The translations under genes were made by a program, and so were the position numbers. The notes below the pieces were generated by a model that saw nothing but the letters and a program-made list of their open reading frames with translations, made no database searches and had not been told where the DNA came from. Shown here one piece after another: positions 20,901 through 55,621 of a stretch of 64,000 nt of DNA; the stretch's first letter is position 1, and each line of letters begins with the position of its first letter. This DNA is from Candidatus Cloacimonadota bacterium (GTDB taxonomy: Bacteria > Cloacimonadota > Cloacimonadia > Cloacimonadales > TCS61), in NCBI GenBank assembly GCA_021735645.1, contig JAIPGP010000006.1:3634-67633 (forward strand), in the 5' to 3' direction.

Positions 20901-23900
20901 AGTATGATTTCAGCAAATCCTTCTGCATTTGCCTGTCCACTGTAAGGACCATTTGCCATTGCTACTGGATTATCATTCACTGATTCAACTATTATCAGTA
21001 TGTCATCACTGGCAGATAATCTACTCATTTCGTCTTCTACCATAAAGGTCAAAGTCTCTTCACCAAACCAGTCCTCACTAGCTGTAAATATTACTGTATA
21101 ACCTTCTATAGCTGCAGCTATTTCTGTACCACCTTCTACTGTTAAGGTTAGCATATCTTCATCTATATCATTGAGGTATTCTGTGAAATCTACTTCCAGA
21201 CTACCATCTTCAGCAAATATAAAACTATCTGGTAATTCGATCTCCGGTGCATCATTGACCGGATTGACTATAAGATGGAATGTATCAGATGCCTGCTCAA
21301 AACTATCACTCACAAATATTGTGATATCAAGCTCACCATTCCAGTCTAAAACCGATGATAAAGTTAAAATACCATTGCTGATATCTATTTCAACGGCTTC
21401 AGGATTATACTCTGCCCAGTAATTATAAAGATCGCCATCCGGATCCGTAAAATAATCCGCTAAAGTTAACATCTCTGGAGCAAAATCCTCATCAAGTTCC
21501 ATATCAGGAATATCATTATATACATAAGGAGCATCATTTACGCCTATCACCAGCACTTCAAAGGTATCACTCACAAATGCCCTGTCCATATTATCAGAAG
21601 CGGTGACTGTTACTATTGCTGTGCCTGCCCAGTTTTCCACACTTGCCAGATACATCATATTATCAGTAAAGGTTACCATGATCTCTTCTGCATTGAAGTC
21701 TGCTGTATAAGTTAATACGTCTCCATCAACATCACCAAAGTTTTCGCTTAGATCAAATGAAGTCTCTGCAAAATCTTCAAAAAATTCCTGATTCTCAATT
21801 TCTGCTACTACATAAGGCGCATCATTCACACTCATCACCTGCACCTCAAAAGCATCAGCTACAATGTCTCTGCCTATTTCATCAGATGCTGTGATTGTCA
21901 CTTCTGTTGTTCCATTCCAGTTTTCCACGCTGGCTAGATAAAGAATGTTATCTGTTATTGTTACTATGATTTCCTCATTATTGTATTCTGCACTATAACT
22001 TAATACATCTCCATCTACATCACCAAAGTTTGCATTCAGATCAGCATTTACTGCTATTTCCTCGAAATCTTCCGCCAATTCCTGATCTGCCAGTTCTTCT
22101 AATATATAGGGAGCATCATTCACTGCTTCCACAACTATATCTACATTCACTTCCGCGACAGCTCTACCCTGGTTATCTGTTACGCCAATTACGATTGCAT
22201 CTGTACCATTCCAGTTATCTCCTGCACTAAAAGTGATCACAAAACCTTCAATCGCACTGATGATATTATCCACATCAGCCAGATACATTTCTAATTCGTC
22301 GTCATCTACATCACTTATATATTCAGTAAAATCTACCTGAATACTTTCATCTTCATTGAAAATGATCTCTGGCTCAGCATAAGTGAATACTGGAGCATCA
22401 TTTATGGCATTTACGATTACCAGTACATCATCGCTGGCTGTTAAACGCTCCTGATTATCATCAACAATAAAAGTCAATGTTTCCATACCATTCCAGTTTT
22501 CTGCCGCTGTAAAGAACACTACACCACCCATTATTTGTACTGTGATGTTCTCATTGCCCGTAACCGTTAAAGTAAGATCATTCAGGTCAGGATCAGAGAT
22601 ATAACCTTCCCCGATAAAATCAACTCCCAGATTCCCATCTTCATCAAACATAAAGTAATCCGGTAATACGATCTCTGGGGCTGCATTGCCGTTTTCCACC
22701 GTGATCACTACTTCGTCTGCCTCACTCCAGGCTTCTCCATCACTTACTATCAATGTGATCGTATAAGGTGTCGATTCGCTTACATCCGGTGCCGTGAAAG
22801 TTGGAATCGCTGAGGTCGGGTCGCTTAACACTATTCCCTCAGGAGCACCCCATAAAAATTCCAGATCCGGAATGAATATTGTTGTTACTGTAAATACATA
22901 AGGATCAAATCCGTCGCCAACCTGCGTATCAGCCACAAACGCAACTTCACCCTCTACATCATAAACCATGTCTGCACTGGCATCATAGTATTTGAAGGTA
23001 ACTACATCTCCGCTGGTCGTATTACTGAAAATCGCCGGCATATAAAATGTTCTGTTGAAATATTCCATGTATTGAACGGTGTTATCACTCTGCTGTGCTA
23101 TGCCTCGGCATTCATCACCAACAAATGCTCCTATCATATCATTTAAATCATTTATCTCTACTCCATCTACTTCCACTACTCCCCAAACTGTAAAACTATA
23201 TTCATAATCATGATAATCAAATATCCAGTCTGGTTCACGGCTTACCTCGCCATCTGGATCATAAGAAGCCGTTCCATTGAGCTGTACCAGATCTCCTTCT
23301 ATTACTGTCTGATCCTCTCCCGCATCTGCTACTGGAGGTAAATTGCCATTTTCTACTGTGATCACTACTTCATCAGCTTCACTCCAGCTTTCGCCGTCAC
23401 TCACTATTAATGAAATAGTGTAATCTGTTGTCTCTGTTACTTCCGGAGCTGTAAATGTAGGCATCACCGCCGTTACATCACTTAGCACTATATCTAATGG
23501 TGCTGTCCAGATAAAATCTAAATTCGACGTAATTACCGTCGATACTTCAAATACTACCGGATCATTTCCATCGCCATAAGTCATATCGGCTACAAAATCT
23601 AATGTCCCTGCTACTTCATATTCCATATCTGTTTCTGCATCATAATAAAGAAAATCTATCGTCTCGCCACTGGTTTGATTGCTATATACTTCCGGCAGGA
23701 ATATTATATGATCAAAATACTGGGTATAATCAAATACATTACCATTTGCTTCACTGGCTATTCCTCGGCATTCTCCATCTACAAAACAGCCCAGTATTCC
23801 TGTCGTTATATCCACTTCCACCCCATCCAGTTCTACTATTCCCCAGATCGAGCAGCTGTATTCATAATCTGCATAATTAAATGACCAGTCTGGTAAACGG

Positions 23901-26206
23901 CTTTCCTCGCCATCCGGATCATATGAACCACTACCATTTAACTGGACTAGATCTCCCTCGGTTACTGTCTGATCTGCCCCGGCATCTGCTACTGGCGGCA
24001 TATTACCTAAAGCTGCTTCCAAAAATACCATGGTATTGCCATTTATCGTATAATTTCCTGTCCAGGGCGGTATTGGTGTTGCTGTGATTTCCGTTAATTC
24101 CACTCCCAGGCTCGCATCCCAGATCCGATATATTACCGGATGATTCATTATATATCCATTCAAGACAGTCGCATTTTGATCCATATCCATAGATGTCACT
24201 ATTGTATAAGGTGATGCACCCTCTACTACTGTCGCTCCCACACACACTTCTGTTCCACCAGTAGTTACATCAAACACAGCTACTTCATCCCCTGGTTCTA
24301 ATGCTGCTCCTCCAGCAGTTGTGGCATAAGCACTTATTGTATGACCTAAAAATGGCGTGTTAGGTAATCCTTCCCAGACTGCTGCAAAGTGAGGTTCAGC
24401 AGGTCCTGTTGTACTTACTTCAAATACTACCGGATCATTTCCGTCGCCATATGTCATATCTGCTACAAAATCTAATGTCCCTGATACTTCATATTCCATA
24501 TCTGTTTCTGCATCATAATAAAGAAAATCTATCGTCTCGCCACTGGTTTGATTACTGTAAACCTCCGGCAGGAATATTATATGATCAAAATACTGGGTAT
24601 AATCAAATACATTACCGTTTGCTTCACTGGCTATTCCCCGGCATTCTCCATTTACAAAACAGCCCAGTATTCCTGTCGTTATATCCACTTCCACCCCATC
24701 CAGTTCTACTATACCCCAGATTGAGCAGCTGTATTCATAATCTGCATAATTAAATGACCAGTCAGGTAAGTCACGGCTCGTATTAGCCTGGCTTAACATA
24801 TTTGCAATATTTGTCTCTGTACTCTCTGACGCTAATGTCAAAGGCTCAGGATAATTCAATTGCTCCGGTGCATTCATCTTCAGCATATAACCGCCTAAAG
24901 GCTGCAGAGTTGTCAAACTTCCCAGCCAGCCCGGTCCGGTATAATACATCGCACTTTGCGTCTGACTCTTAATATTGGAACCCTCACTCAGTGAGGCTAA
25001 AGCATAATTGATGTTTTCAGATGCCTGAGGAGCATATGATATCCAGTTCCAGCCCGAAGTTAAACTATAAGTAAGCTCTGAAATTTCTACTGGCGTTCCT
25101 GTATAGTCCAGAGTAGTAGCAGTATTTACTCCTAATTTATAAAAAGTGTTATTGTTGATTGAGGTTAATGATCCCAGCCAGCCAGGACCGGGATAATACA
25201 TGGCACTTTGCGTCTGGCTTTTTATATTAGTAGCATTTGCCCCAATAGAAGCCAGTACATTGTTTGTGGTCATATTATCACCAGCTACATTAAGCGAAAA
25301 CCAGTTCCAGCCAGGTACCATATTCTTATTAACTGTTATCTCTTGGGGCCCACCTAAAAATGTGATCGTCCCAGCTTCCAGATTTAATAAATTTGCTGAA
25401 TTATATCTGAAATAATCTAAGCTGGCTAACGCCTCGCCCTCTATGCCTTCCGGACTAAATTCTAAGCTGCATAATGTACCTGCTCCTGTGATCGGCATCA
25501 CATTCGCATAGCCTACTATAATTACGCCAGGTTCCGTTTCATTAGCTATTAAATTCCCCGGATTTGGCACATCTCCCAAAGCATAGCTCCCGGCATATGT
25601 CATCATACTTACATCATATAATAATGCAAACTGAAAAGATATCGCTCCCATATCACTGGTTAATTCACTAGTCAATATTGACAGATTAAAGTTTTCTTCC
25701 AAGCCAACTTCAGGAGAATCCACTGTGATTACTACATCTGAAAATGGATTAGGTACTACTACTTCTACATTGCCATCTACCAGATTGCCATCTAATAAAA
25801 AGGTAGAATTGTACTTGAAATCATACAGGTCCAAAATCGTCTCTCCTGCACTTATGGCACTAAATTCTATTATTACCAGATTCCCTGCTCCAGAAATATT
25901 CAGATAGTTTGCATATGCTACCCGTAATGTCCCCGGCTCAAATTCATTAGCTATCAGGTTTGCTGGAAGAGGCATCTCTCCCAAAGATATGCCCTCATAC
26001 TGAATCAGGCTCTCATCAAATGACAAATCAAACTGGAATGCTATCACATCCCATTCATCTAATACTTCCGTCGTGGTTAAATTGATCTGAAATGTGTCGC
26101 CTTCTTCTACCATCGCATCTGATACTGTGATTATGGTATTCTCGAATTGACCATAAATAAACATAATTGATAATAAAAGAAAACAAAAAACTATAACTCG
26201 TTTCAT
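11948..26206 (-). CDS. 4752-aa acidic secreted scaffoldin-like protein: about 4 cohesin-like domains, about 30 cadherin-like (tandem-95)/PKD/Ig repeats, ECRG modules, GWN(W/L)IS domains, C-terminal FlgD-Ig/T9SS-like sorting domain
   Basis: Signal peptide MKRVIVFCFLLLSIMFIYG. Cohesin-like stretches (e.g. WDVIAFQFDLSFDESLIQYEG...ISGAGNLVIIEF) at about 26143-25756, 25742-25355, 17328-16950 and 16372-15965. Repeated VNDAP and DxDxD Ca-binding motifs. C-terminus YPNPFNPETSISF...VYNVKGQ...SGVYF. RBS GGAGG upstream. Confidence 0.92.
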   Translation of the reverse strand: MKRVIVFCFLLLSIMFIYGQFENTIITVSDAMVEEGDTFQINLTTTEVLDEWDVIAFQFDLSFDESLIQYEGISLGEMPLPANLIANEFEPGTLRVAYANYLNISGAGNLVIIEFSAISAGETILDLYDFKYNSTFLLDGNLVDGNVEVVVPNPFSDVVITVDSPEVGLEENFNLSILTSELTSDMGAISFQFALLYDVSMMTYAGSYALGDVPNPGNLIANETEPGVIIVGYANVMPITGAGTLCSLEFSPEGIEGEALASLDYFRYNSANLLNLEAGTITFLGGPQEITVNKNMVPGWNWFSLNVAGDNMTTNNVLASIGANATNIKSQTQSAMYYPGPGWLGSLTSINNNTFYKLGVNTATTLDYTGTPVEISELTYSLTSGWNWISYAPQASENINYALASLSEGSNIKSQTQSAMYYTGPGWLGSLTTLQPLGGYMLKMNAPEQLNYPEPLTLASESTETNIANMLSQANTSRDLPDWSFNYADYEYSCSIWGIVELDGVEVDITTGILGCFVNGECRGIASEANGNVFDYTQYFDHIIFLPEVYSNQTSGETIDFLYYDAETDMEYEVSGTLDFVADMTYGDGNDPVVFEVSTTGPAEPHFAAVWEGLPNTPFLGHTISAYATTAGGAALEPGDEVAVFDVTTGGTEVCVGATVVEGASPYTIVTSMDMDQNATVLNGYIMNHPVIYRIWDASLGVELTEITATPIPPWTGNYTINGNTMVFLEAALGNMPPVADAGADQTVTEGDLVQLNGSGSYDPDGEESRLPDWSFNYADYEYSCSIWGIVELDGVEVDITTGILGCFVDGECRGIASEANGNVFDYTQYFDHIIFLPEVYSNQTSGETIDFLYYDAETDMEYEVAGTLDFVADMTYGDGNDPVVFEVSTVITSNLDFIWTAPLDIVLSDVTAVMPTFTAPEVTETTDYTISLIVSDGESWSEADEVVITVENGNLPPVADAGEDQTVIEGDLVQLNGTASYDPDGEVSREPDWIFDYHDYEYSFTVWGVVEVDGVEINDLNDMIGAFVGDECRGIAQQSDNTVQYMEYFNRTFYMPAIFSNTTSGDVVTFKYYDASADMVYDVEGEVAFVADTQVGDGFDPYVFTVTTIFIPDLEFLWGAPEGIVLSDPTSAIPTFTAPDVSESTPYTITLIVSDGEAWSEADEVVITVENGNAAPEIVLPDYFMFDEDGNLGVDFIGEGYISDPDLNDLTLTVTGNENITVQIMGGVVFFTAAENWNGMETLTFIVDDNQERLTASDDVLVIVNAINDAPVFTYAEPEIIFNEDESIQVDFTEYISDVDDDELEMYLADVDNIISAIEGFVITFSAGDNWNGTDAIVIGVTDNQGRAVAEVNVDIVVEAVNDAPYILEELADQELAEDFEEIAVNADLNANFGDVDGDVLSYSAEYNNEEIIVTITDNILYLASVENWNGTTEVTITASDEIGRDIVADAFEVQVMSVNDAPYVVAEIENQEFFEDFAETSFDLSENFGDVDGDVLTYTADFNAEEIMVTFTDNMMYLASVENWAGTAIVTVTASDNMDRAFVSDTFEVLVIGVNDAPYVYNDIPDMELDEDFAPEMLTLADYFTDPDGDLYNYWAEYNPEAVEIDISNGILTLSSVLDWNGELDITIFVSDSFEQASDTFHLIVNPVNDAPEIELPDSFIFAEDGSLEVDFTEYLNDIDEDMLTLTVEGGTEIAAAIEGYTVIFTASEDWFGEETLTFMVEDEMSRLSASDDILIIVESVNDNPVAMANGPYSGQANAEGFAEIILDASGSYDIDGEIVSWVWTWEGGSAEGDNVTTMFAVGETPILLTITDNEGGIGEASTTVNVSDYDNIAPEAVADEFAVFEDELLMNNVLANDYDPDQYPDALTAELEQDVSNGVLELMADGSFTYTPAENWNGEDMFSYRAFDGAAYSLVTEVIIIVTPVNDNPVAMPGGPYSGQADGSGFVEIMLDGSGSYDIDGEIVSWEWNWEGGSGEGETLLALFAVGETTVYLTVTDNDGGIGEANTTVNVSDYDNIAPVAVADAFEVFEDEVLIDNVLANDQDPDQYPAALTAELVADVSNGVLELLEDGSFTYTPAANWNGEDMFSYRAFDGAAYSPETEVAITVMPVNDAPEQVMALEDVYLEEDFDTYELSLVDYFNDIDNEVLNFAVDYNVEEIEIADLGNGMFEIISLENWNGESYVGVTVTDGEYEVMSNFIVYVEAVNDAPTIELPESFGFTEDGSLEIDFAQYVNDIDEDMLYLSVMGNENVIVDISGLMVTFSAEADWNGEEILTFTINDAMDRLIAEDMVTVIVEAVNDAPELVMQPEDINLAEDFEPYEFSLAGYFSDIDNEFLNYAVNYNVEEIEIADLDNGMFEIISLADWNGESYVGVTVTDGEYEVESSFMVYVEAVNDAPELIMQPESINLVEDFEPYQFSLVGYFYDIDNEVLNYAVNYNAAEIEIADLGNGMFEITPVADWNGESYVGVTVTDGEYEVESSFMVYVEAVNDAPELLMQPEDINLAEDFEPYEFSLVGYFSDIDNEVLNYAVDYNAAEIEIADLGNGMFEITSLENWHGESYVGVTVTDGEYDVMSNFMVNVEAVNDEPVAEANGPYYEQADEEGNAPVMLDGSGSYDIDGEIVAWEWSWEGGSVSGEMPEAIFATGVFDVMLTVTDDEGGFGTDMTIVTVSGYENIAPVATADSFDGDEDTILSGNVLYNDYDADQYPEALTAGLMSDVSFGELLFNANGEFEYMPSENWFGVDSFEYRAYDGIDYSETVTVELTVLPVNDAPVLVEELDDIYLQEDFEPYQLDISGNFADVDEDVLTYDIGFAAEEILLVNLGNGAFLLESVENWYGETLLEVSAGDGEYIVETSFMVYVEPVNDEPVIELPESFTMDEGVEFAVDFTEYISDIDGDELELTVEGNVNIEVMIDGYMVTFNSPVWYGEEILTFTINDYMGRAIDTDEVTLIVRPAIFEAEITVGSAIALEEDTFTISVSTTELYDYWNIISFEFDINYDAESYEYVGFSAGEVPNPNAMLLVNNSAPGVVAVAYADAMIITGAGNLVTFEFVAVNAGISEITAVDFRYNSTEIMNVIPGTVEVIDVNHPPVADAGEDQMLDEGLLVQLDGTGSSDPDGQDLTYEWLAPAGIELDDPLSATPSFTAPEVIVNEDFTLTLIVSDGEFEDGDEVVITVLNVNHPPVADAGEAQTVNEGDLLLLDGSGSFDPDAGTELVYNWIAPAGIIIENADSPIATLIAPSVNEATDFEFTLEVSDGEYVVSDEVVITVLNAEIPEIVASISVGSGSGAPGEPIHIDVLTSYVNPGWNVFSYQFKLAFDDMELSLDGWSLDNTIVIPDGQLDVWYDRDVVNIKFVSQQSSGGRELIPIEGEGSLINLEFSSINGGQAVLDVYDFVYNQEEIEVELPGVINNSAPYVQVPIPEQVVFEDFETFSLDLDNYISDYDEDVLIYTVESGEGILVESYDNMLEISSVENFNGTVPVTVTAWDGYSDLSEVTTEFDVVVTPVNDAPEIELPEYLSFEEDGELIVDFAPFISDIDGDELGLSVTGNENINVGFAGTEVTFTALENYHGIEVLTFIVSDGMQRAIAMDDITVEVISVNDLPVAEAGTPINATAGPLGTAMVNLDGSGSYDIDGEIVQYYWGWNGGEAYGNTVEVELAPGNYTITLEVTDNENGTDSDHVQVSVAPYGGTNPIAYPDTYNVDEDMILTVSAEEGILANDVDDGYPEILTALMLDEPVIGTLIYNEESWDGSFEYTAPANWNGVASFTYVAFDGNQFSAETEVTINVNSVNDLPVADAGGPYTADAEVTGMAMVTLSGSGSDIDGEIVLYEWYYDGQMIGAGASIDYEFGAGEHVVTLMVTDDEDGVAEDTAAVTVNGYVNIAPVAVDDYYTVIEDETLMVDAVSGVLANDYDPDEYPELLTCVIEDQRDITLNEDGSFEYVPEADFNGSVSFEYYITDGEAMSDIAMIYIEVTPVNDTPVIELPAEFSFLEDETLVVDFSEYVNDIDSEFLTLSVDGNLMVSVDIEGFAVTFSAEEDWYGNEILSFTVSDNEVRLSASADVEIIVGEVNDAPVVNEYLPVETDITIYDDAVIEFSVEATDVDNELSYSWTLNGELMPIMGNIFTPEFIEEGEYVVVVEITDGEYVETLTWAIHYLLAPDWAVVTYDNFTNAHGYVTVDGLSADPGDMIGAFVEGECRGMGTVNGASRVNFQIFGDIVEIVNFKFWDLETDTEYDLEYFTQTYPGGTIGTVSNPLPLAVSTGVGPGWTPVIYTNSTIVYAIVTIEGEDAVEGDLVAAFVGEECRAVTEVQILTREAIASLVVQGETVETVHFRIWDSSEDMIYNVGTSIQSNPGGSVGYPPNQILLNGSNTTDVTQILNLSGGWNLISLYVRPTDMSVEAVFAPIMENLLKVKDIYSSYDPSLPAAYNTLHTLEDGAGYYVKVNGVSELDVTGAILDPLQTPIDLSGGWNLVAYVNQNAMDVETAFAELIDGGTLLKVKDIFSSYDPSLPSAYNTLVNLEPGKGYYVRVSEPITFYYPGATRNLITSADELNDSIWEPVIYTNSMVVYSQIEMTDSEGMILAGFAGEECRGVSRIRDYNGINISSLVINSEKAEEISFRIYDPKSRAVFECNEVIISEPGEDYDRMPLLTVNMGEDEVIVNGLTNIYPNPFNPETSISFHLETDEMVSVKVYNVKGQLIKTILANELPAGDHIITWNGMNDRNTGCTSGVYFVSFSAGVIQEVQKVILMK
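18450..19305 (-). repeat. Three near-identical 285-bp (95-aa) cadherin-like units, with a further similar copy at about 19585-19870
   Basis: Anchor gcatcatt at 18726, 19011 and 19296 (period 285). Protein repeat VNDAPEL.MQPE.INL.EDFEPY.FSL.GYF.DIDNE.LNYAV.YN. Confidence 0.9.
19870..20970 (-). repeat. Tandem 555-bp duplication (PKD-like plus Ig pair)
   Basis: ctgatacatttacggttgta at 20161 and 20716. Protein VNDNPVAM..GPYSGQA...WNGEDMFSYRAFDGAAYS occurs twice. Confidence 0.85.
23540..24768 (-). repeat. Two near-identical ~355-bp copies of an ECRG module (about 23540-23898 and 24411-24768)
   Basis: LPDWSFNYADYEYSCSIWGIVELDGVEVDITTGILGCFV(N/D)GECRG...DPVVFEVST appears twice, with a DNA offset of about 873 bp. 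Confidence 0.9.
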
Positions 26207-39833: not shown

Positions 39834-40857
39834 ATTTATAATATTTTCGCCGAAATCCGGAGACCCACTCACCTTTAGGTAAAAATAACTTCTTTACTAG
39901 CCCGGTAATAAACCCGCTGCCATAAGCCAGCACCTGAGTAAACAATGTCAACACCGAAAGACAGCCCACCAGCAGTGAATGATTACGTATCGCAGACTGG
40001 GTGAAGGAGAATAAGGCGACAAATACGCCCAATACGGCTTCCAATAAGAGCAAAGAGCGGAGGATATTAAAAAAGACAGCCCCCACCACCGTGCCCAGAA
40101 ATATTATCAAAATCACCGCCGGCAGTGCATGAACCGGCTTTAACATCGCCCGGTCAATTGTGCCTAAATTTATCCGTGTCACGCCCCAGTTGAATATCTG
40201 CTTGAAAAACCGCCTCAAATTCGTGCGGCGCTTATGAAATACCTGCAGCTCCGGTAAAAATATCACCCGAAATCCGGCTTTGTAAATCCGGTTGGAAAAT
40301 TCCATATCCTGACCGTGCCTCAAAGCATTCATGCCGCCTATCTTTTCATATACCCGCCGGCGAATTCCCATATTGAAACTGCGGGGATAATATTTAGCAA
40401 CACTTCTTTTGGCTGAACCGCGAGTTCCACCTGTTCCTATGAAGGAAGTCATGGAATAATTCACTGCCTTCAAAAATGGCGGGAAATCTTCCCTTTGCGT
40501 ATCTGGTCCCCCAAAAGCATCAAAACTGTCCTCACTCAAAGCGACCTGCAATTTACTTATATAATCTGCAGGCACAGTGCAGTCAGAATCTATAAAAACC
40601 ATTAACTCGCCTGCCGCTTCTGCCATGCCCCTGTTTCGGGCGGCTCCGGGTCCCTGATTCTGCTGATGAAAATACCTTATCTGCAGCTTACCTGTATATT
40701 GTGCCAAAACCTCATTTAATTCATCTGTAGAGCCATCATCCACTATGATGATCTCAAAACCGGTTTTTATATCCTGGTTACAAAAGGATGATAGAAATTC
40801 TGCTATTTCCTCCGCCCTATTATAAACTGGAACAATTATTGATATTAGTTTATTCAT
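39832..40857 (-). CDS. GT2 family glycosyltransferase with C-terminal TM helices
   Basis: ISIIVPVYNR; IIIVDDGSTD; GPGAARNRG; FIDSDC; PRSFNMG. Confidence 0.93.
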   Translation of the reverse strand: MNKLISIIVPVYNRAEEIAEFLSSFCNQDIKTGFEIIIVDDGSTDELNEVLAQYTGKLQIRYFHQQNQGPGAARNRGMAEAAGELMVFIDSDCTVPADYISKLQVALSEDSFDAFGGPDTQREDFPPFLKAVNYSMTSFIGTGGTRGSAKRSVAKYYPRSFNMGIRRRVYEKIGGMNALRHGQDMEFSNRIYKAGFRVIFLPELQVFHKRRTNLRRFFKQIFNWGVTRINLGTIDRAMLKPVHALPAVILIIFLGTVVGAVFFNILRSLLLLEAVLGVFVALFSFTQSAIRNHSLLVGCLSVLTLFTQVLAYGSGFITGLVKKLFLPKGEWVSGFRRKYYK

Positions 40858-48230: not shown

Positions 48231-48734
48231 TCAATTATTATTTAAACTCCTGCTATGAAGTCATACTTAATATCGTTCGTTCGTCTTGATTAAAAACTTT
48301 GTCAATTCCGTAACTGCCCCTCTATATACAATTTATACTTTATCTCTATTATAATCTCCATAATTTACTGCAATTAAACCCCTTACATCTTGTTCAACTG
48401 TTTCTTACTTCATCTACCACACCCAGAGTGGCCCCCCTGTGGCTTCCCTGTGGCTTTATCACTGTTATGGTCAATTACTGTAACATTAGTTCTCTTTTAA
48501 TTATTGCTGTTTTTCTGGAACATGAACCCAATTCATCATATCCAATAATCTCCGCAAAGAACTTTTAAAAAACTACCTCTTTCCCGGTCAAATAATAAAT
48601 AGTTTGACAATAATAAATCGATTTCGCCATATACATTTATGCTAATCAAGTCAGCCTGAAGTGTTTGCAGAATATATTGTTATTAGTAATTTCATCAACT
48701 GGTTAGTCTGATAATTATTTTTCATGGAGGAGTT

Positions 48735-49277
48735 ATGATGCTCATTAGGAAGTTTTTTTTGTTTCTGCTATTAATTCTATTTATTTTACCCGTTTCTGCG
48801 GCTATCGGCTGGGGAAATTCGGAAATTGTTTTCCTTTCTTCCACAACTGATGATAGTAATCATGTTGGTTCTGGTATTTCAGAAATGATCTTTTTATCTT
48901 CGATGGAGGAGGTTTTTCATATCGGCGAAGGAATTTCTGAGATAGTGCTGTTAAGTTCACTGCATTATGGCGATGTGGATAATAATTCGGAAGTGGAAAG
49001 TCTTGATGCTTCCCTGATCCTGCAATACGTGATAGGATTCGATCCTGCTCCTGCTGCACCTTTACCCTGGGAAGACTGGAGAATCACAGTGGCAGATGTG
49101 AGTGGCAGCGGTTCTATTGGAGCTTATGACGCCGCGCTGATCTTGCGCTATGTGCTTGATTTAATCGATATCTTCCCGGTAGAAGGTGAACCCATAATTG
49201 ATAGAGTAAGGATTGAACAAATGAAACGCGAATTTATTAACTCGCAATACAATAATAATGGAGGAGAAATAAAATGA
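48735..49277 (+). CDS. Small secreted dockerin protein with three G.G.SE..(F/L)LSS repeats
   Basis: Signal peptide; repeats GWGNSEIVFLSS, GSGISEMIFLSS and GEGISEIVLLSS; dockerin YGDVDNNSEVESLDASLILQY...ADVSGSGSIGAYDAALILRY (48966-49184). GGAGG RBS, with TTGACA at about 48604. Confidence 0.88.
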   Translation: MMLIRKFFLFLLLILFILPVSAAIGWGNSEIVFLSSTTDDSNHVGSGISEMIFLSSMEEVFHIGEGISEIVLLSSLHYGDVDNNSEVESLDASLILQYVIGFDPAPAAPLPWEDWRITVADVSGSGSIGAYDAALILRYVLDLIDIFPVEGEPIIDRVRIEQMKREFINSQYNNNGGEIK

Positions 49278-50359
49278 AAAAGATACTGATTGTTTTGATC
49301 ATATTATCAGGAGTATATTTATATTGTAATGAACCACCGGTTGTCAGTAATATTATTGTGGAACAGCGAGACGATGGCAGTTATCTGGTTGATATTTATT
49401 ATGATCTGGAAGATGCTGATGGAGATAGCATGCTGGTAAGCGTTAGTGCTTCTGATGATGAAGGTATTTCTTGGAATTATGTGATCGTTTCTGTGGAAGG
49501 TGATATTGGTAATGATATTGTATCCGGTAACGGGAAGCAGGTGATCTGGGATTTTGCTGTTGATCATCCTGAAGTCTTGAATATACCTACAATGATCAGA
49601 ATCACTGCTGATGACCGTAATGGTGAAGGTATTGAAAGCATGATCTTCGTGGAAGGTGGTTTATTTGAGATGGGTGACCAGTTTAATGAGGGAAATGATG
49701 ATGAATTACCGGTTCATAATGTAACTCTAAGCAATTTCTATATAGGTCAGTATGAAGTTACGCAGGGTGAATATGAAGCCGTTATGGGCAGCAATCCGGC
49801 TCATAGTTATGGAGTTGGCGATTATTATCCTGTATATTACGTGACCTGGTATAATGCAGTGCAATATTGCAATGCTTTGAGTGAGATTGAAGGCTTAACA
49901 CCCTGCTATAATTTGTCTGACTGGAGTTGTGATTTTAGTGTTGATGGTTATAGATTGCCCACTGAAGCGGAATGGGAATATGCCGCGCGAGGTGGCTTGA
50001 ATTGGGAAGATAATTATCGTTACAGCGGAACAACGGACAATTTGGGAGATTATGCCTGGTATTATAATAATTCAGGTTCACAGACTCATGAAGTCGGAAC
50101 AAAGGAACCAAACCAGCTTAACATTTATGATATGAGCGGTAACGTTTGTGAATGGTGTAATGATTGGTATTCCAGTAGTTATTATGGCTCAAGCCCCAGT
50201 AGTGATCCAACTGGACCTGATAACGGGTCTGAACGTATGGTTCGTGATGGCTTCTGGAATAACTATGCCAGTTACTGCCGTGTAGCTGATCGTCACGGCG
50301 ACCATCCCAGCACTAGTCAAGACAGTGTGGGCTTCCGCATCCTCAGGACAGCAGAATAA
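49274..50359 (+). CDS. Secreted FGE-sulfatase/SUMF1-like (CLec-fold) protein with N-terminal Ig-like domain; C-terminus resembles a DGR variable region
   Basis: GGLFEMGD; P.H.VTL..FYIGQYEVTQ; YRLPTEAEWEYAARGG; PNQL.IYDMSGNVCEWC.DWY; terminal GFRI.R. ATGA overlap with the dockerin gene. Confidence 0.93.
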   Translation: MKKILIVLIILSGVYLYCNEPPVVSNIIVEQRDDGSYLVDIYYDLEDADGDSMLVSVSASDDEGISWNYVIVSVEGDIGNDIVSGNGKQVIWDFAVDHPEVLNIPTMIRITADDRNGEGIESMIFVEGGLFEMGDQFNEGNDDELPVHNVTLSNFYIGQYEVTQGEYEAVMGSNPAHSYGVGDYYPVYYVTWYNAVQYCNALSEIEGLTPCYNLSDWSCDFSVDGYRLPTEAEWEYAARGGLNWEDNYRYSGTTDNLGDYAWYYNNSGSQTHEVGTKEPNQLNIYDMSGNVCEWCNDWYSSSYYGSSPSSDPTGPDNGSERMVRDGFWNNYASYCRVADRHGDHPSTSQDSVGFRILRTAE

Positions 50360-50539: not shown

Positions 50540-53500
50540 GTGAAATCAAGATTGATTCTGTTCATCATGTTTGTGCTGGCGTTATCTATCTTAAAGGCAA
50601 TTTCAAATATTAACAGCTTTGAGGTAATGTATAATAATGGACAAACTGTTTTGGACAGGACTATTCTTGCCACAGAATCAGATAGTGTATTTCAGCAAGT
50701 GCTGCCTGTGATAGATGGTGAGGAATATTTTGCCCTGAGCAGCAGCAACTGCGAAGTGGAAATCAGTTCAGTAATGAGATTACGTGATCTGGAATTTTCA
50801 ATTCTCACAGTATATCCTTCCGAAAATTTGCTGCCTGGAGACAGTCTTCAGATTGTTTTAGAGGGAAATTGTCAGGCTGAAGTGGAATTATCCAGTCCTG
50901 CCGAATCATTTCTCAAGATGTATATCAGCCTTTTTCCTGAAATGGCTGAACGTGAAAACTGGCGGGAACTTGAGCCAGCCCAGCCTAATATCCTCTATAT
51001 TTATCCCGATATCAGCGAACCTTCTTTCTGGCAGGCTTTTGATTATTTACTGGAATGGAAAAAACAAAAAGGTTTTAAGGTTTATCAGTATGCTGTAGAT
51101 AATGAACCCAGTTCGTCTATAAAAGACTATATCCAAAATGCTTATGACTCCTGGGAAGAACCACCGGAATACGTCTGCCTCGTTGGTGATGCCGGAGGTG
51201 ATTATAATGTCCCTACTGCTTATTTTTCAGGAGGTGAAGGTGACCATTACTACACTACCCTGGCAGGTGATGACCAAATTGCCGATATTCATATCGGTCG
51301 ACTTTCTTTTGATAATATTTTGCAGTGGCAATCCATTGTATATAAAACTATTATGTATGAAAAAGAACCCTATCTGGATAACCCCGACTGGTTCAGCCGG
51401 GCTTTACTGGTTGGTGACCCCACTTCTTCAGGCATGTCGTGTGTTTATACCAATATCAATATCCGCGAATTGATTGAGCATAACTATCCGGAATATGATT
51501 ATCTGGAAATATATGAATATCCCTTCCAGCCAACAATGCAAACGAAGATAGATTTGGGAGTCAGTTACTTCAATTATCGTGGATATGGCGGCATGAGCGG
51601 CTGGTATGATGGCACGGCAAACGGGCTGTATAATGGTATGATGCTCCCATTTGCGGTAATCAGTACCTGTGCAACCGGTGATTTTGCCGGCACTGAAGGC
51701 TGCCGCAGTGAAGTGTTTCTCCAAACCGGCTCTGTGTCTAATCCCAGAGGAGCTATTGGAGCCATCGGCACCGCTACTATCACTACCCATACCTGCTTTA
51801 ATAACTGCTTTGTTACCGGTGTGGCTTATGGCTTATTTGCTGACAAACTGCTGACTATGGGCGCCGCTCATACGAGAGGTAAAACTGCTTTATGGCTGAA
51901 TTATCCCCAAAATCCGGATCAGGCAGCAACAAAATTCTCTTACTGGAATAATCTGATGGGTTGTCCGGCAGTGGCAATCTGGCAGGGCTTCCCCCGCGAA
52001 TTATCTGTTATCAGAGAAGATATTTACTCCACCAGCATGAATAATATTAGTATCCAGGTTCTCAATGAATATTCCGATCCAGCCTGTGAGATGTATTGCT
52101 GCCTCTATAATACTGCAAATGATGAACAGTATTTTTGCTATAGTGACCAGAGCGGCTATGCCAATTTTAGCATGGCAGACCTGGACTCTGATGAATTTAT
52201 TCTCACTGTGAGTGGAAATAATTTTTATCCCTGCCAGGATACTATTTATATTTCAGCAGATTTTGACCTGTATATCAATGACCTCACTTTCTATGACAAC
52301 AGCAGTAATGGCAGTTTTGAGCCTGGTGAAACAGGATCAGTAGGCTTTGAGATCATCAATTGCAGTGATGCCGTTATCGCTCCTCTGGAAATATCTGTTT
52401 TCAGTAATTCCGCAGAGATCATCGTTAGTGATGGAGAAATTGTGATTGATCAGCTTGAACCTGATGCAACCCTATTTATCGATGATATCGGATTGCTGTT
52501 TCAAAATAGCATCACGAATGATCAGCCCCAATTTATCGGCGTCTCGGTTCAATCAGATAACTACTCATTTTATGATACCTACCAACTGCCGGTTACTTTT
52601 TTGGAATTCACTTTAAGTGATTATGATTTTACGGATGATAATAATAATTTACCGGAACCCGGGGAAGTGATCAGTTTCGATTATTGTATTACGAATTCAG
52701 GTGATTGTAATTTAGATGATATTAGCCTGCAATTTACTACTGCCAGCAATATCGTCTGGGTTTCTGACCAGATTATTTCCCTGGGAAGCCTGCAACCGGG
52801 TGATTCTTATCAATCTGCTGAATCGATTTCACTTGATATTGCCCAGGCATTCATTGCCGGAAATAATGAAACTTTGCTCCTGAAATTGAGTAATCCCACC
52901 GGATTTGAACAATATATTGATCTGGAATTCTGCATTGGGGAATCCGGTATTGATCAGCCCACAGGTCCTGATGCTTTCGGATATTGCATCTATGATGAAT
53001 ATGATCAGGAATATCTGGATGTTGATTATGACTGGGTGGAAATTAATGATTACACTGAATTATTTCTCCCGGATAATGGTGATCAAGGTGCATCTTGCCG
53101 GGTGATGCTGCCCTTCAATTTTCGCTATTATGACCAGGACTATGACTGCATTACTGTGTGCTCCAATGGCTGGGTGGCTCCCGGGGATACTGAAAGTGCC
53201 TCCTTTATGAATTGGGCTATCCCCGGCGAAGGTGGAATCTCTCCTGTCATTGCTGTTTTCTGGGATGATCTGGTTAATGCAGATAATAGTGGTATCTATA
53301 CTTACTACTCTCAGGATGATAATTACTTCGTGATCGAATGGGATAGATTACGTAATGACTGGGATAACAGTCTGGAAACATTTGAATTGATTATCTATGA
53401 CAGGCAGTTCTTTCCCAGCTCTAATGGTAATAATCTGCTCAAATTTCAATATAAGGATTTTAATAATACTAATACCGGTAACTATACGGGTACTCACTTA

Positions 53501-55621
53501 GCCAATCACGGACAGTTTGCTACTATAGGTATTGAAGATCAAACCGGTATGTATGGTCTGCAATATACTTATAATGACGATTATCCTGATACCGGGGCAG
53601 AACTTAGCAGCGAAAGCGCTTTGATGATTGGTGGACAGCCGGTCCCTGCCGAATCTGCCTGGATTGTGATAGATGATTGCCATTATTTCAATTCTGCAGG
53701 TGAAAACCTTGTCACTCCGGGTGACTCGATCTCTATCGTGCTCGATTTGTGGAATATTGGCAGTGAAGCTACTCAAGACATCCTCCTGGAACTTTATTGT
53801 GAGAATCTTGATCATATTGATCTGATAGATAATGAACTTTTGATTGGGGAAATTCCACCTCTTACATTGATCGAGGGAATTGCCGGATTAAATTTCTTTA
53901 TCAGTGAAAATTACCCTCCACTGGAAGAATTGCAGTTTGATCTGATAATTAGCTCAAATAGTATGTCGTGGAACTATGGTCTAAATGTTCGGGTTACAGC
54001 TCCATTAATAGATTTTAACGCTGATTATATTGAATTCGGTGAAGTATTTTGTAATTATGAAGCTTATTACGAACTGATTATTGAAAATGATGGCACTGCA
54101 AATCTTCAAGTTTCTGATGTGTATAGCTCTACACCGGAGTTAACTGCTGACTTTTCTCCTATGCTGATTGAACCCGGTGAAACGCAATCCCTTAACCTGA
54201 CATTGCTGACAGATGAGATCGGTGATTTTAATGCAAATCTTACCATAATCAGTAATTCCATCACCTCCAATTCATATATTTTGCCGGTAACTGCTGTAGT
54301 AGTATCGCCACCAGTTATTGTAGTAGATAGCAGTTTGCACTATTTTGAGGCAGAACTTGATGAATTAAACACCTTCCCTATTGATATCAGTAATGCCGGA
54401 GATGGTACTTTATATGTTTCCGCTCATTTGGAAGGATTTTATAATTCAGGAAATGGAGCTTTATTCAGCGGGGGCTACCTGAACCTTTCAGAACCGGTTA
54501 TCACAGGCTCTGAATTCACTATTGAAGCCTGGGCTCGTATTGATGGTCCTGGTTTCCACGTTCATGAATCCAATCCTATCTATGAACAGAGAGATAGCGA
54601 TCCTGAAGATTACCGGGCAATTATGGTTCTCTTTGCCAGATCAAGTTCTGGCTATACTGTTTTCTCTATGCAGGCTGTAAATAGTACTGGCGTTGTATTA
54701 GTAACTCCTGCTCCACCATTCGGAGGATGGCATCACTATGCCGTCACCGTTGATGACGATTTTGTTAACCTGTTTCTGGACGGACAACTCATGGTCACCG
54801 AAATTAATAATGAAAGTGGTGGCTATACTTCCGGGGTAGATTTTACCGGAATTGGATCTCATAGATATAGTGGAATATTAAAAGCATCATATAACGGCAT
54901 GATCGATGAAGTAAGGTTCTGGGATAGAGTCCTTACTCCTCAGGAAATACTCGATCATCAATATCACAGTGTTGACCCTGATTCAGATAACCTTACTGCC
55001 TGCTGGACATTTAATAATCTAAATAACTGGCAGGATATCACCAATTGCGGGATATATACTACTCCTGTTTCATCGGTAGATCATTTTCAATCTGAGGCAC
55101 CCATTAACGATTGGAGCAGTATCGATTCGCAGTCCCTCATCATTGAAGGTGGAGAAAATGGCTTGATTAATCTTATCATAGATACCTCCTGGCTTACTCT
55201 GGGAGACACTTATCAGACAAACCTGATATTAGAAACTAATGATCCCGAAACTGCAGAGATCACTATTCCTGTAGAAGTATCAGTGGTTCCCTCCTCAGAT
55301 AATGAAGATGAAATTATCTCTCATAACCGGCTTGAGCAAAATTATCCTAATCCTTTCCGCTGCAATTCAGATTCCCGAATTGTTACTACTATCGATTATG
55401 CTTTAACTCCGGAAGTAGCAGAAGCTGAAATCATAATCTATAATATCAAAGGGCAAAAAGTTAAAAACTTTATCCTTGATCCGAAAACCCAAACGCTGGG
55501 AAGTATCTCCTGGAATGGATATAATAATCAAAATAGACAGGTCGGCAGCGGAGTATATTGCTATGTATTGAAATCTGACAACAAGATTAACTGTCAGAAG
55601 AAGCTGTTATTACTCAGATAG
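50540..55621 (+). CDS. C25 (gingipain-family) peptidase-like multidomain protein with Ig-like, nidogen-like and LamG domains and a FlgD-Ig/T9SS-like C-terminus
   Basis: WKKQKGF; IKDYIQNAY; PEYVCLVGD; GDHYY; HIGRLS; YEKEP; NYRGY; TCATG; GAIGAIG; NLMG. LamG-like FTIEAW...WHHYAVT...GMIDEVRFW. C-terminal QNYPNPF...IYNIKGQ...SGVY. Confidence 0.92.
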   Translation: MKSRLILFIMFVLALSILKAISNINSFEVMYNNGQTVLDRTILATESDSVFQQVLPVIDGEEYFALSSSNCEVEISSVMRLRDLEFSILTVYPSENLLPGDSLQIVLEGNCQAEVELSSPAESFLKMYISLFPEMAERENWRELEPAQPNILYIYPDISEPSFWQAFDYLLEWKKQKGFKVYQYAVDNEPSSSIKDYIQNAYDSWEEPPEYVCLVGDAGGDYNVPTAYFSGGEGDHYYTTLAGDDQIADIHIGRLSFDNILQWQSIVYKTIMYEKEPYLDNPDWFSRALLVGDPTSSGMSCVYTNINIRELIEHNYPEYDYLEIYEYPFQPTMQTKIDLGVSYFNYRGYGGMSGWYDGTANGLYNGMMLPFAVISTCATGDFAGTEGCRSEVFLQTGSVSNPRGAIGAIGTATITTHTCFNNCFVTGVAYGLFADKLLTMGAAHTRGKTALWLNYPQNPDQAATKFSYWNNLMGCPAVAIWQGFPRELSVIREDIYSTSMNNISIQVLNEYSDPACEMYCCLYNTANDEQYFCYSDQSGYANFSMADLDSDEFILTVSGNNFYPCQDTIYISADFDLYINDLTFYDNSSNGSFEPGETGSVGFEIINCSDAVIAPLEISVFSNSAEIIVSDGEIVIDQLEPDATLFIDDIGLLFQNSITNDQPQFIGVSVQSDNYSFYDTYQLPVTFLEFTLSDYDFTDDNNNLPEPGEVISFDYCITNSGDCNLDDISLQFTTASNIVWVSDQIISLGSLQPGDSYQSAESISLDIAQAFIAGNNETLLLKLSNPTGFEQYIDLEFCIGESGIDQPTGPDAFGYCIYDEYDQEYLDVDYDWVEINDYTELFLPDNGDQGASCRVMLPFNFRYYDQDYDCITVCSNGWVAPGDTESASFMNWAIPGEGGISPVIAVFWDDLVNADNSGIYTYYSQDDNYFVIEWDRLRNDWDNSLETFELIIYDRQFFPSSNGNNLLKFQYKDFNNTNTGNYTGTHLANHGQFATIGIEDQTGMYGLQYTYNDDYPDTGAELSSESALMIGGQPVPAESAWIVIDDCHYFNSAGENLVTPGDSISIVLDLWNIGSEATQDILLELYCENLDHIDLIDNELLIGEIPPLTLIEGIAGLNFFISENYPPLEELQFDLIISSNSMSWNYGLNVRVTAPLIDFNADYIEFGEVFCNYEAYYELIIENDGTANLQVSDVYSSTPELTADFSPMLIEPGETQSLNLTLLTDEIGDFNANLTIISNSITSNSYILPVTAVVVSPPVIVVDSSLHYFEAELDELNTFPIDISNAGDGTLYVSAHLEGFYNSGNGALFSGGYLNLSEPVITGSEFTIEAWARIDGPGFHVHESNPIYEQRDSDPEDYRAIMVLFARSSSGYTVFSMQAVNSTGVVLVTPAPPFGGWHHYAVTVDDDFVNLFLDGQLMVTEINNESGGYTSGVDFTGIGSHRYSGILKASYNGMIDEVRFWDRVLTPQEILDHQYHSVDPDSDNLTACWTFNNLNNWQDITNCGIYTTPVSSVDHFQSEAPINDWSSIDSQSLIIEGGENGLINLIIDTSWLTLGDTYQTNLILETNDPETAEITIPVEVSVVPSSDNEDEIISHNRLEQNYPNPFRCNSDSRIVTTIDYALTPEVAEAEIIIYNIKGQKVKNFILDPKTQTLGSISWNGYNNQNRQVGSGVYCYVLKSDNKINCQKKLLLLR

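What the first reader, a model, noticed from the sequence alone, without database searches (positions are those of the whole stretch)
48735..50359. Candidate new display system: three-donor-strand dockerin adaptor coupled to an incomplete-Ig CLec head
Seen: the 180-aa protein consists only of a signal peptide, three 12-residue beta-strand-like repeats (GWGNSEIVFLSS, GSGISEMIFLSS, GEGISEIVLLSS; 48807-48960), a dockerin and a short tail. It is translationally coupled (ATGA) to an FGE/CLec protein. That protein's N-terminal Ig-like domain (PVVSNIIVEQ / LVDIYYDLED / MLVSVSASDD / KQVIWD / MIRITADD) runs straight into the FGE domain and appears to lack a final G strand. Neither protein has the C-terminal sorting domain. 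Known: donor-strand complementation completes Ig folds in chaperone-usher and type V pili. Inference: each adaptor captures up to three heads by strand donation and plugs them into scaffold cohesins, giving a highly multivalent, antibody-like array of binding heads that may also be co-exported with the scaffold.
Basis: inference. Interest (0 to 1): 0.88.

Follow-up and report, generated by a model that had tools for sequence, protein, structure and literature searches.

The report
Repeat-peptide dockerin adaptor for lectin-like heads
A small secreted protein with three short strand-like repeats and a dockerin sits beside a lectin-like binding protein and probably clips it onto the cell's cellulosome-like scaffold, by adding a strand to the edge of a complete Ig-like domain and not by filling in a broken one.

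Summary
The sequence features are real. The 180-aa protein has a signal peptide, three ~20-aa repeats and a Pfam dockerin. It overlaps (ATGA) a 361-aa protein made of an N-terminal Ig-like domain and a non-catalytic FGE/C-type-lectin-fold head.

The claim that the Ig domain lacks a G strand is not supported:
- AF2 predicts seven strands for the domain alone, pLDDT 74-89.
- The domain is a widespread autonomous module, in tandem arrays of up to 27 copies.
- It occurs in 89 of 201 genomes of the order; the adaptor occurs in two genera only.

A weaker form of the idea survives:
- The repeats are predicted disordered alone.
- One complex prediction scores 0.77 against a best control of 0.01. It lays repeat 2 antiparallel to strand G.
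- The adaptor gene is followed by an Ig-FGE gene in 5 of 6 genomic loci and 10 of 11 informative metagenomic loci.
- The Ig "handle" stays 69-80% identical where the heads fall to 29-31%.

The head is closest to the DGR variable protein TvpA. The cohesin-dockerin system of this genus is already published. Stoichiometry, export route and cohesin binding are untested.

The parts
48726..48732 (+). Shine-Dalgarno-like GGAGGAG before the adaptor gene
   Evidence: read
48735..49277 (+). adaptor gene, 180 aa: signal peptide, three repeats, dockerin, short tail
48735..48800 (+). signal peptide (residues 1-22; cleavage site inferred near VSA/A)
   Evidence: hydrophobic N-terminus; helix 2-23; conserved LPVxAA
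48807..48842 (+). repeat 1 core (GWGNSEIVFLSS, residues 25-36)
48864..48899 (+). repeat 2 core (GSGISEMIFLSS, residues 44-55). The predicted interface footprint is residues 41-57 and 59
48921..48956 (+). repeat 3 core (GEGISEIVLLSS, residues 63-74), directly abutting the dockerin
48966..49190 (+). type I dockerin-like domain. Pfam covers residues 78-141; genome paralogues align to about residue 152, ending FPVE
49260..49266 (+). Shine-Dalgarno-like GGAGGAG for the second gene, inside the end of the adaptor gene
49274..50359 (+). Ig-FGE gene, 361 aa; its start overlaps the adaptor stop (ATGA)
49328..49618 (+). N-terminal Ig-like 'handle' domain (residues 19-115): seven predicted strands, no Pfam or NCBIfam family
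49565..49618 (+). F-G loop and strand G (residues 98-115, includes LNIPTM). This is the main predicted contact with the repeat, and the motif is specific to the two genera that have the adaptor
49634..50347 (+). FGE-sulfatase / C-type-lectin-fold head (residues 121-358). The first catalytic Cys of true FGEs is replaced
50234..50344 (+). hypervariable C-terminal stretch of the head (residues about 321-357), with NNC-type codon variation among orthologues
50540..55621 (+). context: C25 (gingipain-family) peptidase, 1693 aa, with T9SS C-terminal domain
11948..26206 (-). context: 4752-aa surface protein with two Pfam cohesin stretches, many Big_9/cadherin/PKD domains and a T9SS C-terminal domain. 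It is a candidate docking scaffold

Best explanation
This is a two-gene module of the cohesin-dockerin (cellulosome-like) surface system of a Candidatus Stygibacter-like Cloacimonadota bacterium.

Gene 1 encodes a small secreted adaptor. It has three tandem ~20-residue repeats that are disordered on their own, followed by a type I dockerin.

Gene 2 encodes a secreted protein with a complete N-terminal Ig-like 'handle' domain. Its head is a non-catalytic FGE/C-type-lectin fold of the kind used as variable ligand-binding proteins by diversity-generating retroelements.

Proposed mechanism: a repeat binds the handle by beta-strand augmentation, lying antiparallel to strand G at the open A/G edge of the sandwich. 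This is like a beta-zipper and is not the completion of a broken fold. The dockerin then plugs the loaded adaptor into cohesins of T9SS-anchored scaffold proteins, so that lectin-like binding heads sit beside the degradative enzymes.

Shown from sequence and searches: domain content, repeats, gene overlap, synteny, the conserved handle with divergent heads, and cohesins and dockerins in the genome.

Predicted by model only: the repeat-handle contact and its geometry.

Inferred: cohesin binding, how many heads bind each adaptor, surface location, and the ligand of the head.
For: 1. Architecture.
2. The repeat unit is conserved and its copy number varies among homologues. A motif count gives 4-9 in the 14 metagenomic loci.
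3. The repeats are low-confidence and unstructured alone (pLDDT 31-45).
4. Complex prediction, Ig-FGE residues 19-361 with adaptor residues 22-80: ipSAE 0.77, 0.83, 0.77 against controls 0.00, 0.01, 0.00. The tool's mark was reached by 58 of 80 solved complexes and 2 of 110 mismatched pairs. The verdict was 'supports binding; does not show it'.
5. The interface is adaptor 41-57 and 59, which is exactly one conserved repeat unit. On the other chain it is residues 19-31, 37/39/41/43, 63-64, 94-95 and 98-115. The register is a regular antiparallel ladder: residue numbers sum to 157-158 from 104:54 to 113:44.
6. Synteny: an Ig-FGE gene is the next gene in 5 of 6 adaptor loci in 5 genomes. It is also next in 10 of 11 informative metagenomic loci; 3 of the 14 loci end too soon to tell.
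7. In the window's own genome the handle domain occurs in 2 of 7894 ORFs of at least 80 aa. Both directly follow a dockerin gene. The other 21 FGE matches have no dockerin ORF within 26 kb or on their contig.
8. The handle is 69-80% identical among proteins of the two genera even where the FGE core is only 29-31% identical. The lowest-error contact residues (101-106) lie in a motif, LNIP[TA]M, present in 6 of 6 handles of those genera and in 0 of 8 others aligned.
9. The locus with the longest adaptor (288 aa, about 9 motifs) is followed by two tandem Ig-FGE genes (L090).
10. Docking partners exist: 21 cohesin matches in the genome, some in the window's 4752-aa CTD protein.
11. The cellulosome-like system of Ca. 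Stygibacter is described in PMC8542988 (passages read).
Against: - The contact is one model from one tool. Partner pLDDT is only 46-51. The three runs agree in 'at least 0%' of contacts; this could mean that different repeats were used or that placement is inconsistent, and I cannot tell which. My own alignments were used, so the calibration holds only roughly.
- The handle is predicted complete without the peptide. It works without this adaptor in most genomes that have it: 89 of 201 genomes have the domain, while adaptor-type loci were found in 5 genomes of 2 genera. None of 24 loci from other genera had an adaptor in the ±1.5 kb fetched.
- One adaptor locus is followed by a NeuB-family gene instead (L045/L082).
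- One genome of the genus (G083, 90% complete) has a handle-type Ig-FGE but no adaptor was found with this query.
- The window's genome has three repeats but only one handle of the conserved type.
- Repeat 3 runs straight into the dockerin, so it may not be free.
- Neither protein has a T9SS C-terminal domain, so their route across the outer membrane is unknown. However, 22 of 39 dockerin ORFs in the genome share this.
- Many metagenomic loci are resamplings of the same populations, so the synteny counts are not independent.
Confidence: 0.5

Rival explanations
1. The repeats are only a variable-length, acidic, flexible spacer, or a small dockerin-only protein that competes for or regulates cohesin sites. 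On this view the adjacency to Ig-FGE reflects co-regulation of two independent secreted proteins, not binding.
For: The repeats are predicted unstructured alone. Copy number varies freely. One adaptor locus has no FGE neighbour. The handle is complete and widespread without the adaptor.
Against: A spacer would not need a conserved 12-residue core with both faces hydrophobic. The complex score is 0.77 against 0.01 for the best control, and the footprint equals one repeat unit. The handle is conserved at 69-80% while the heads diverge to about 30%. Synteny holds in 5 of 6 and 10 of 11 loci.
Confidence: 0.2
2. One reading: the Ig domain is an incomplete fold lacking strand G. It is unstable alone and is completed by a donated adaptor strand, as in chaperone-usher or type V pilins.
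For: A repeat is predicted to pair as a beta strand with the Ig domain. Block pLDDT of the strand G region is the lowest within the domain (74, against 79-89 for the rest).
Against: Seven strands including G (107-113) are predicted without the partner. The peptide pairs beside G and does not replace it. The domain family forms tandem arrays of up to 27 units and single N-terminal copies before many other head types. It occurs in 89 of 201 genomes of the order, mostly without an adaptor.
Confidence: 0.06
3. The adaptor is a periplasmic escort. It holds the Ig-FGE protein through the repeats and binds, through its dockerin, a cohesin of a T9SS cargo while still in the periplasm, so that both CTD-less proteins ride out with the scaffold.
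For: Both proteins have Sec-type signal peptides but no CTD. The cohesin proteins carry CTDs. 22 of 39 dockerin ORFs have no CTD and need some route out.
Against: No data here bear on export. Piggy-back export through the T9SS is, to my recollection, not established. This is an extension of the best explanation, not an alternative to the binding step.
Confidence: 0.12
4. The repeats assemble with each other, within or between molecules, into a beta-sheet or amyloid-like fibre that carries dockerins. The Ig-FGE neighbour is unrelated to them.
For: The short repeats have hydrophobic cores on both faces, and the ~19-20-aa period is reminiscent (recalled) of functional-amyloid repeats.
Against: AF2 predicts no strand pairing among the repeats. 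No longer proteins carry the repeats. The specific complex score with the handle and the synteny are not explained.
Confidence: 0.05

Closest known systems
Cellulosome-like cohesin-dockerin complex of Candidatus Stygibacter (PMC8542988) and cellulosomal adaptor scaffoldins
   Same: The genus, the dockerin type and CTD-anchored proteins with cohesins are the same. As in adaptor scaffoldins, a small protein would link cargo to a scaffold through its dockerin.
   Different: Known adaptors capture cargo with cohesin modules (recalled). This one has no cohesin, only short peptide repeats. Its cargo has no dockerin and is a lectin-like protein, not an enzyme. The passages of PMC8542988 that I read do not mention it; the terms formylglycine and sulfatase occur 0 times.
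Tandem beta-zipper binding of disordered bacterial fibronectin-binding repeats to fibronectin F1 modules (recalled, not searched here)
   Same: Disordered tandem repeats, each adding an antiparallel strand to the edge of an already complete beta-sandwich domain. This is the geometry predicted, and the repeats are unstructured alone.
   Different: There, several motifs bind consecutive domains of one host protein. Here each target protein has a single handle domain, both partners are the bacterium's own, and they are encoded side by side.
Donor-strand complementation in chaperone-usher pili and strand exchange in type V pili
   Same: A short strand from one polypeptide pairs with the Ig-like fold of another.
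   Different: Those pilins lack a strand or have one removed, and are unstable alone (recalled). Here the fold is predicted complete and the peptide adds an extra edge strand beside G. There is no usher, chaperone or pilin family signal.
TvpA (PDB 2Y3C), variable protein of the Treponema denticola diversity-generating retroelement
   Same: TvpA is the best solved relative of the head by sequence (E 4.9e-47) and by fold (Foldseek rank 1, TM 0.72 by target). The C-terminal stretch is hypervariable with NNC-type codon changes among orthologues. A sister genome has a true DGR on an FGE-type target, with 24 of 24 TR/VR mismatches at template adenines.
   Different: No template repeat for this gene was found in the window's assembly. 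Against the sister genome's TR, only 22 of 36 mismatches fall on adenines. TvpA has no such N-terminal handle or adaptor to my knowledge (recalled).
Formylglycine-generating enzyme (for example PDB 6MUJ, 2Q17) and PorK/GldK
   Same: Same Pfam family and fold.
   Different: The first of the two catalytic cysteines is replaced (query WNNYASYC against YLCHDSYC in 6MUJ). Scores are far below the NCBIfam cut-offs for GldK (102 against 350) and for the other equivalogs.

Membership tests
Type I dockerin (PF00404) | Profile match above the curated cut-off | tested here: met
   36.6 bits against a cut-off of 22.9, residues 78-141. 39 paralogous dockerin matches in the genome.
Type I dockerin (PF00404) | Duplicated calcium-binding loop plus helix segments | tested here: met
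   Two D-x-D/S-x-N/G...D-A-x-L-I-L-x-Y segments (residues about 80-98 and 120-139) are seen in the sequence and conserved in alignment A1. Assigning them to calcium binding is recalled knowledge.
Type I dockerin (PF00404) | Binds a cohesin | not testable with these tools
   Cohesins are present but no binding test was run.
Catalytic formylglycine-generating enzyme | FGE-sulfatase fold | tested here: met
   PF03781 E 1.4e-51; Foldseek hits to FGEs.
Catalytic formylglycine-generating enzyme | Pair of copper-binding catalytic cysteines | tested here: not met
   In the alignment to 6MUJ, the first Cys position holds Asn in the query. Not filed as an FGE enzyme.
DGR variable protein (TvpA-like C-type-lectin fold) | CLec/FGE fold with a variable region at the C-terminus | tested here: met
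   TvpA is the top hit by sequence and by fold. The last 41 residues are 27-49% identical where the handle is 69-80%. NNC-type codon variation is seen.
DGR variable protein (TvpA-like C-type-lectin fold) | Cognate template repeat with adenine-specific mismatches, plus a reverse transcriptase | tested here: not met
   No TR for the window's VR-like stretch, or for any of 22 FGE 3' ends, was found in the 95%-complete assembly. Two RVT_1 genes exist elsewhere. An unassembled TR cannot be excluded.
Donor-strand-complemented pilin (chaperone-usher, type V) | Ig-like fold missing a strand when alone | tested here: not met
   Seven strands including G are predicted alone. The family is autonomous and tandemly repeated.
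Donor-strand-complemented pilin (chaperone-usher, type V) | Foreign strand occupies the vacant position in the sheet | tested here: inconclusive
   The model places the repeat as an extra strand antiparallel to G and touching A and B.
Tandem beta-zipper type binding | Disordered repeats that add an edge strand to a complete domain | tested here: met
   Model evidence only: repeats have pLDDT 31-45 alone and form an antiparallel ladder with strand G in the complex.
T9SS cargo | C-terminal sorting domain | tested here: not met
   No Por_Secre_tail/FlgD_ig hit in either protein. The adaptor ORF is among the 22 of 39 dockerin ORFs without a CTD.

The most novel reading that the evidence does not exclude
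The tandem repeats are a valency ruler. Each ~20-residue unit captures one lectin-like head through a conserved Ig 'handle', and adaptors with 3 to about 9 units load several heads onto one cohesin site. The heads may differ and may be diversified by a retroelement. Together with the T9SS-anchored scaffolds, this would give an antibody-like, multivalent and exchangeable array of binding heads on the surface of an uncultured anaerobe. Cargo would be recruited by peptide strand augmentation instead of a cohesin, and possibly exported by riding on the scaffold.
Probability: 0.25. Interest if true: 0.85.

Novelty: new variant of a known kind. Interest (0 to 1): 0.62.

Why it matters
If the predicted contact is real, it is a new way of loading cargo onto a cohesin-dockerin scaffold. 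Short linear strand motifs in a disordered adaptor would replace a cohesin module. It would also connect two systems so far treated apart: cellulosome-like complexes and C-type-lectin-fold variable proteins of the DGR type.

It would suggest how an uncultured particle-degrading anaerobe targets its enzyme complex to substrates or to other cells.

It also offers a compact peptide-tag and Ig-handle pair for protein display. Searches for 'donor strand' with 'dockerin' and for 'diversity-generating retroelement' with 'dockerin' each found one paper. By their listed titles, and the one abstract shown, both look unrelated; I did not read them.

Tried and rejected
- Incomplete-Ig reading: rejected.
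- Catalytic FGE: rejected on the missing cysteine.
- GldK/PorK membership: rejected, scores far below the cut-offs.
- Active DGR target in this assembly: not supported. No TR was found by an adenine-tolerant ungapped scan of the whole genome for the window's stretch or for 22 FGE 3' ends. A scan around the two RT genes found only a trivial self-overlap.
- G133:C166, a possible TR: it turned out to be the 3' end of another FGE gene.
- Fused longer proteins carrying the repeats: none among 88 candidates. The tool itself calls this weak evidence.
- Upstream genes of Ig-FGE genes in other genera: fn3, Kre9_KNH-like, RmuC or nothing; no dockerin and no repeats.
- Promoter and terminator scan: nothing above the shuffle background, and no terminator between the two genes on the + strand.
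- ESM Atlas by features: scores 0.79-0.80, at chance level. By structure: the handle precedes FGE, Fib_succ_major, Lcl_C, caspase and Kre9_KNH heads. These are leads only.
- RNA runs: no RNA holder was listed.
- AF2 of the adaptor gave a poor model even for the dockerin (mean pLDDT 49). 'Disordered repeats' therefore rests on weak ground.
- Supplements of PMC8542988 were not seen. They may list these genes.
Full report
**What is there**

Two genes on the + strand overlap by ATGA. ORF 48735-49277 encodes 180 aa and ORF 49274-50359 encodes 361 aa. Each is preceded by GGAGGAG.

Pfam finds a type I dockerin at residues 78-141 of the first protein (E 5.1e-9, above the cut-off). It finds an FGE-sulfatase domain at residues 121-358 of the second (E 1.4e-51). 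Nothing else is found in either protein, in particular no T9SS C-terminal domain.

The next gene downstream (50540-55621) is a 1693-aa C25 peptidase with such a domain. Further upstream on the other strand lie giant surface proteins. One, of 4752 aa, carries two Pfam cohesin stretches and a T9SS C-terminal domain.

Source names on homologues place the window in or near Candidatus Stygibacter, Cloacimonadota.

**The repeats**

At DNA level they repeat with spacing 60 and 57 nt.

The conserved unit is longer than 12 residues, about 19-20 residues including an N/G-H-V/I-G lead-in and an acidic tail.

A word-based search found 16 proteins, the window's own included. Two of them share only the dockerin. 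In the others the number of units varies. A simple motif count gave 4-9 in the 14 metagenomic loci.

The motif occurs nowhere else in the six-frame translation of the 3.77-Mb genome. No longer protein carrying it was found, which is weak evidence. The repeats are therefore real, conserved and confined to this small family.

**The Ig-like domain**

AF2 of the whole protein (19-row alignment, mean pLDDT 76.8) gives strands 23-31, 38-46, 53-60, 74-76, 79-82, 85-93 and 107-113. Block pLDDT is 74-89 across the domain.

An exhaustive profile-free search with residues 19-120 found 1666 cluster representatives at E up to 0.001. These include proteins with up to 27 tandem copies of a unit that matches query positions about 3-97. 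The domain is therefore an autonomous module.

It has no Pfam or NCBIfam name. By structure the Atlas shows it in front of several different head families (lead only).

In a sample of 201 genomes of the order, 89 have the domain. The adaptor was found only in the window's genus (4 of 4 other genomes gave matches, 3 with adaptor-type loci) and in one further genus. None of the 24 loci from other genera had an adaptor in the ±1.5 kb fetched.

The premise of an incomplete fold is not supported.

**Does the adaptor nevertheless bind it?**

Alone, the adaptor is modelled poorly (mean pLDDT 49). The repeats score 31-45 and have no secondary structure. The dockerin is also poor, so this is weak evidence of disorder.

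The scores were 0.77, 0.83 and 0.77. The controls were 0.00 and 0.01 (partner replaced) and 0.00 (the Ig-FGE chain replaced).

The tool's mark was reached by 58 of 80 solved complexes and by 2 of 110 mismatched pairs. The verdict was that the model supports binding but does not show it.

Partner pLDDT was 46-51, and the runs agreed in 'at least 0%' of contacts.

In the best run the contact is entirely with the Ig-like domain. On that chain it covers residues 19-25, 27-31, 37, 39, 41, 43, 63-64, 94-95 and 98-115. On the adaptor it covers residues 41-57 and 59, which is one whole repeat unit (repeat 2).

The lowest-error pairs form a regular antiparallel ladder: 113 with 44, 112 with 45, 109 with 48, 104 with 54. 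The peptide therefore lies beside strand G at the edge it shares with strand A. This is strand augmentation of a complete domain, not replacement of a missing strand.

The zero contact agreement could mean that different, equivalent repeats were used in different runs. It could also mean inconsistent placement. I cannot tell which.

**Independent support from comparative data**

- In genomes, an Ig-FGE gene is the next gene in 5 of 6 adaptor loci. These are the window, G071:C27, G133:C31, G149:C352 and G032:C36. The exception, G071:C5, is followed by a NeuB-family gene.
- In metagenome contigs there were 14 adaptor loci. Three end too soon after the gene to tell. Of the other 11, 10 have an Ig-FGE gene next, and one is the same NeuB locus. 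Several of these are clearly the same populations resampled, so the counts are not independent.
- In the window's own genome the handle domain occurs in only two ORFs: the window's gene and C59:1828-2994. The second also directly follows a dockerin gene. That gene is of another kind: signal peptide, Ig-like domain, dockerin, T9SS C-terminal domain. The other 21 FGE matches have no dockerin ORF nearby.
- Among the proteins of the two genera the handle is 69-80% identical to the window's, even where the FGE core is only 29-31% identical. The handle appears to be a conserved module on exchangeable heads.
- The loop motif LNIP[TA]M holds the residues with the lowest predicted error in the interface. 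It is present in 6 of 6 handles of these genera and in none of the 8 others aligned.
- The locus with the longest adaptor (288 aa) has two Ig-FGE genes in tandem.

**The head**

Its best solved relative is TvpA of Treponema denticola, a variable protein of a diversity-generating retroelement. This holds by sequence (E 4.9e-47) and by fold (Foldseek rank 1).

Against a true FGE, the first catalytic cysteine is replaced. I therefore read the head as a binding domain and not an enzyme.

Its last ~40 residues are much more variable than the rest: 27-49% identity. At DNA level, three orthologues differ mainly in the first two positions of codons ending in C or T, between nearly identical flanks.

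A sister genome has a complete DGR on another FGE-type gene, with an Avd-like ORF, an RT and a TR. There, 24 of 24 TR/VR mismatches lie at template adenines. Against that TR, the window's stretch has 36 mismatches in 124, of which 22 are at adenines. It is related but is not that element's target.

No template repeat was found in the window's 95%-complete assembly, although two RVT_1 genes exist. 'DGR-type head' is therefore a statement of kinship. Current hypermutation is not shown.

**The docking side**

The genome has 39 ORFs with this dockerin type and 21 cohesin matches in about eight proteins.

A cellulosome-like complex with dockerin-bearing enzymes and a CTD-anchored scaffoldin has already been proposed for Ca. 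Stygibacter. I read passages of PMC8542988. The words formylglycine and sulfatase do not occur in it.

Of the 39 dockerin ORFs, 22 end with the dockerin and have no CTD. The adaptor is thus typical in this respect, and the export route of that whole class is an open question.

**Verdict**

The structural premise (an incomplete Ig fold) is wrong. The functional idea survives in a modified form: a dockerin adaptor that captures lectin-like heads through its strand-like repeats. That form has moderate computational support from one strong but single complex model, from synteny, and from a conserved handle whose clade-specific motif lies in the interface.

I put it at about 0.5. The valency claim (three heads per adaptor) and co-export are untested.

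The system is a new variant within a known kind. Cohesin-dockerin display is known, including in this genus, and so are strand augmentation by disordered repeats and C-type-lectin-fold variable heads. By the searches, I did not find their combination described in the held library.

Noticed in passing
L095/L104 (G071:C88, about 4313-8300): A complete diversity-generating retroelement in a sister genome: a 573-aa FGE-type target, a 119-aa Avd-like ORF, a 336-aa RT and a 124-nt TR. All 24 TR/VR mismatches are at template adenines.
   Followed up: yes
window 50234-50344: The 3' end of the FGE gene varies among orthologues mostly in the first two codon positions (NNC-type), between near-identical flanks. 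This looks like a former or current DGR variable region, but no template repeat was found in this assembly.
   Followed up: partly
own genome, contig C59:539-2994: A second pair of genes. The first encodes a ~411-aa protein with signal peptide, Ig-like domain, dockerin and T9SS C-terminal domain. It is directly followed by the only other gene in the genome with the same handle domain plus FGE. The upstream protein has an 'HIYLSS' stretch after its dockerin, of unknown meaning.
   Followed up: partly
own genome, contig C147:1980-4887: An RVT_1 reverse transcriptase gene lies next to an FGE-family gene (a DGR-like arrangement), but no TR/VR pair was detected. A second RVT_1 lies at the end of contig C139.
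   Followed up: partly
own genome, 39 dockerin ORFs: Two classes. 22 ORFs end with the dockerin (no CTD). 17 carry a T9SS C-terminal domain, mostly with the ORF ending 184-216 aa after the dockerin (one at 554). How the CTD-less class crosses the outer membrane is open.
   Followed up: partly
window 3-32645 (- strand): Three giant surface proteins in a row: more than 3947 aa, 4752 aa and 2103 aa. The 4752-aa protein has cohesins, many Big_9/cadherin/PKD domains and a CTD. The 2103-aa protein has CarboxypepD_reg repeats, a weak dockerin and a CTD.
   Followed up: partly
L090 (metagenome contig, 3941-7295): The longest adaptor (288 aa, about 9 repeat motifs) is followed by two tandem Ig-FGE genes, 75% and 67% identical to the window's.
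   Followed up: no
L045 / L082 (G071:C5): The closest adaptor homologue (64% identity) sits after the same glycosyltransferase as in the window. It is followed by NeuB-family and acetyltransferase genes instead of Ig-FGE, and the C25 peptidase gene lies inverted upstream. This is a rearranged version of the locus.
   Followed up: partly
P0137 and others: The unnamed ~95-aa handle domain forms arrays of up to 27 copies in proteins of up to 5686 aa. According to the Atlas structure search it also precedes Fib_succ_major, Lcl_C, caspase and Kre9_KNH heads. It appears to be an undescribed, widespread domain family.
   Followed up: no
window 40850-43387 (- strand): An 845-aa ORF in the polysaccharide-synthesis gene cluster has no Pfam family at E up to 0.01.
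   Followed up: no
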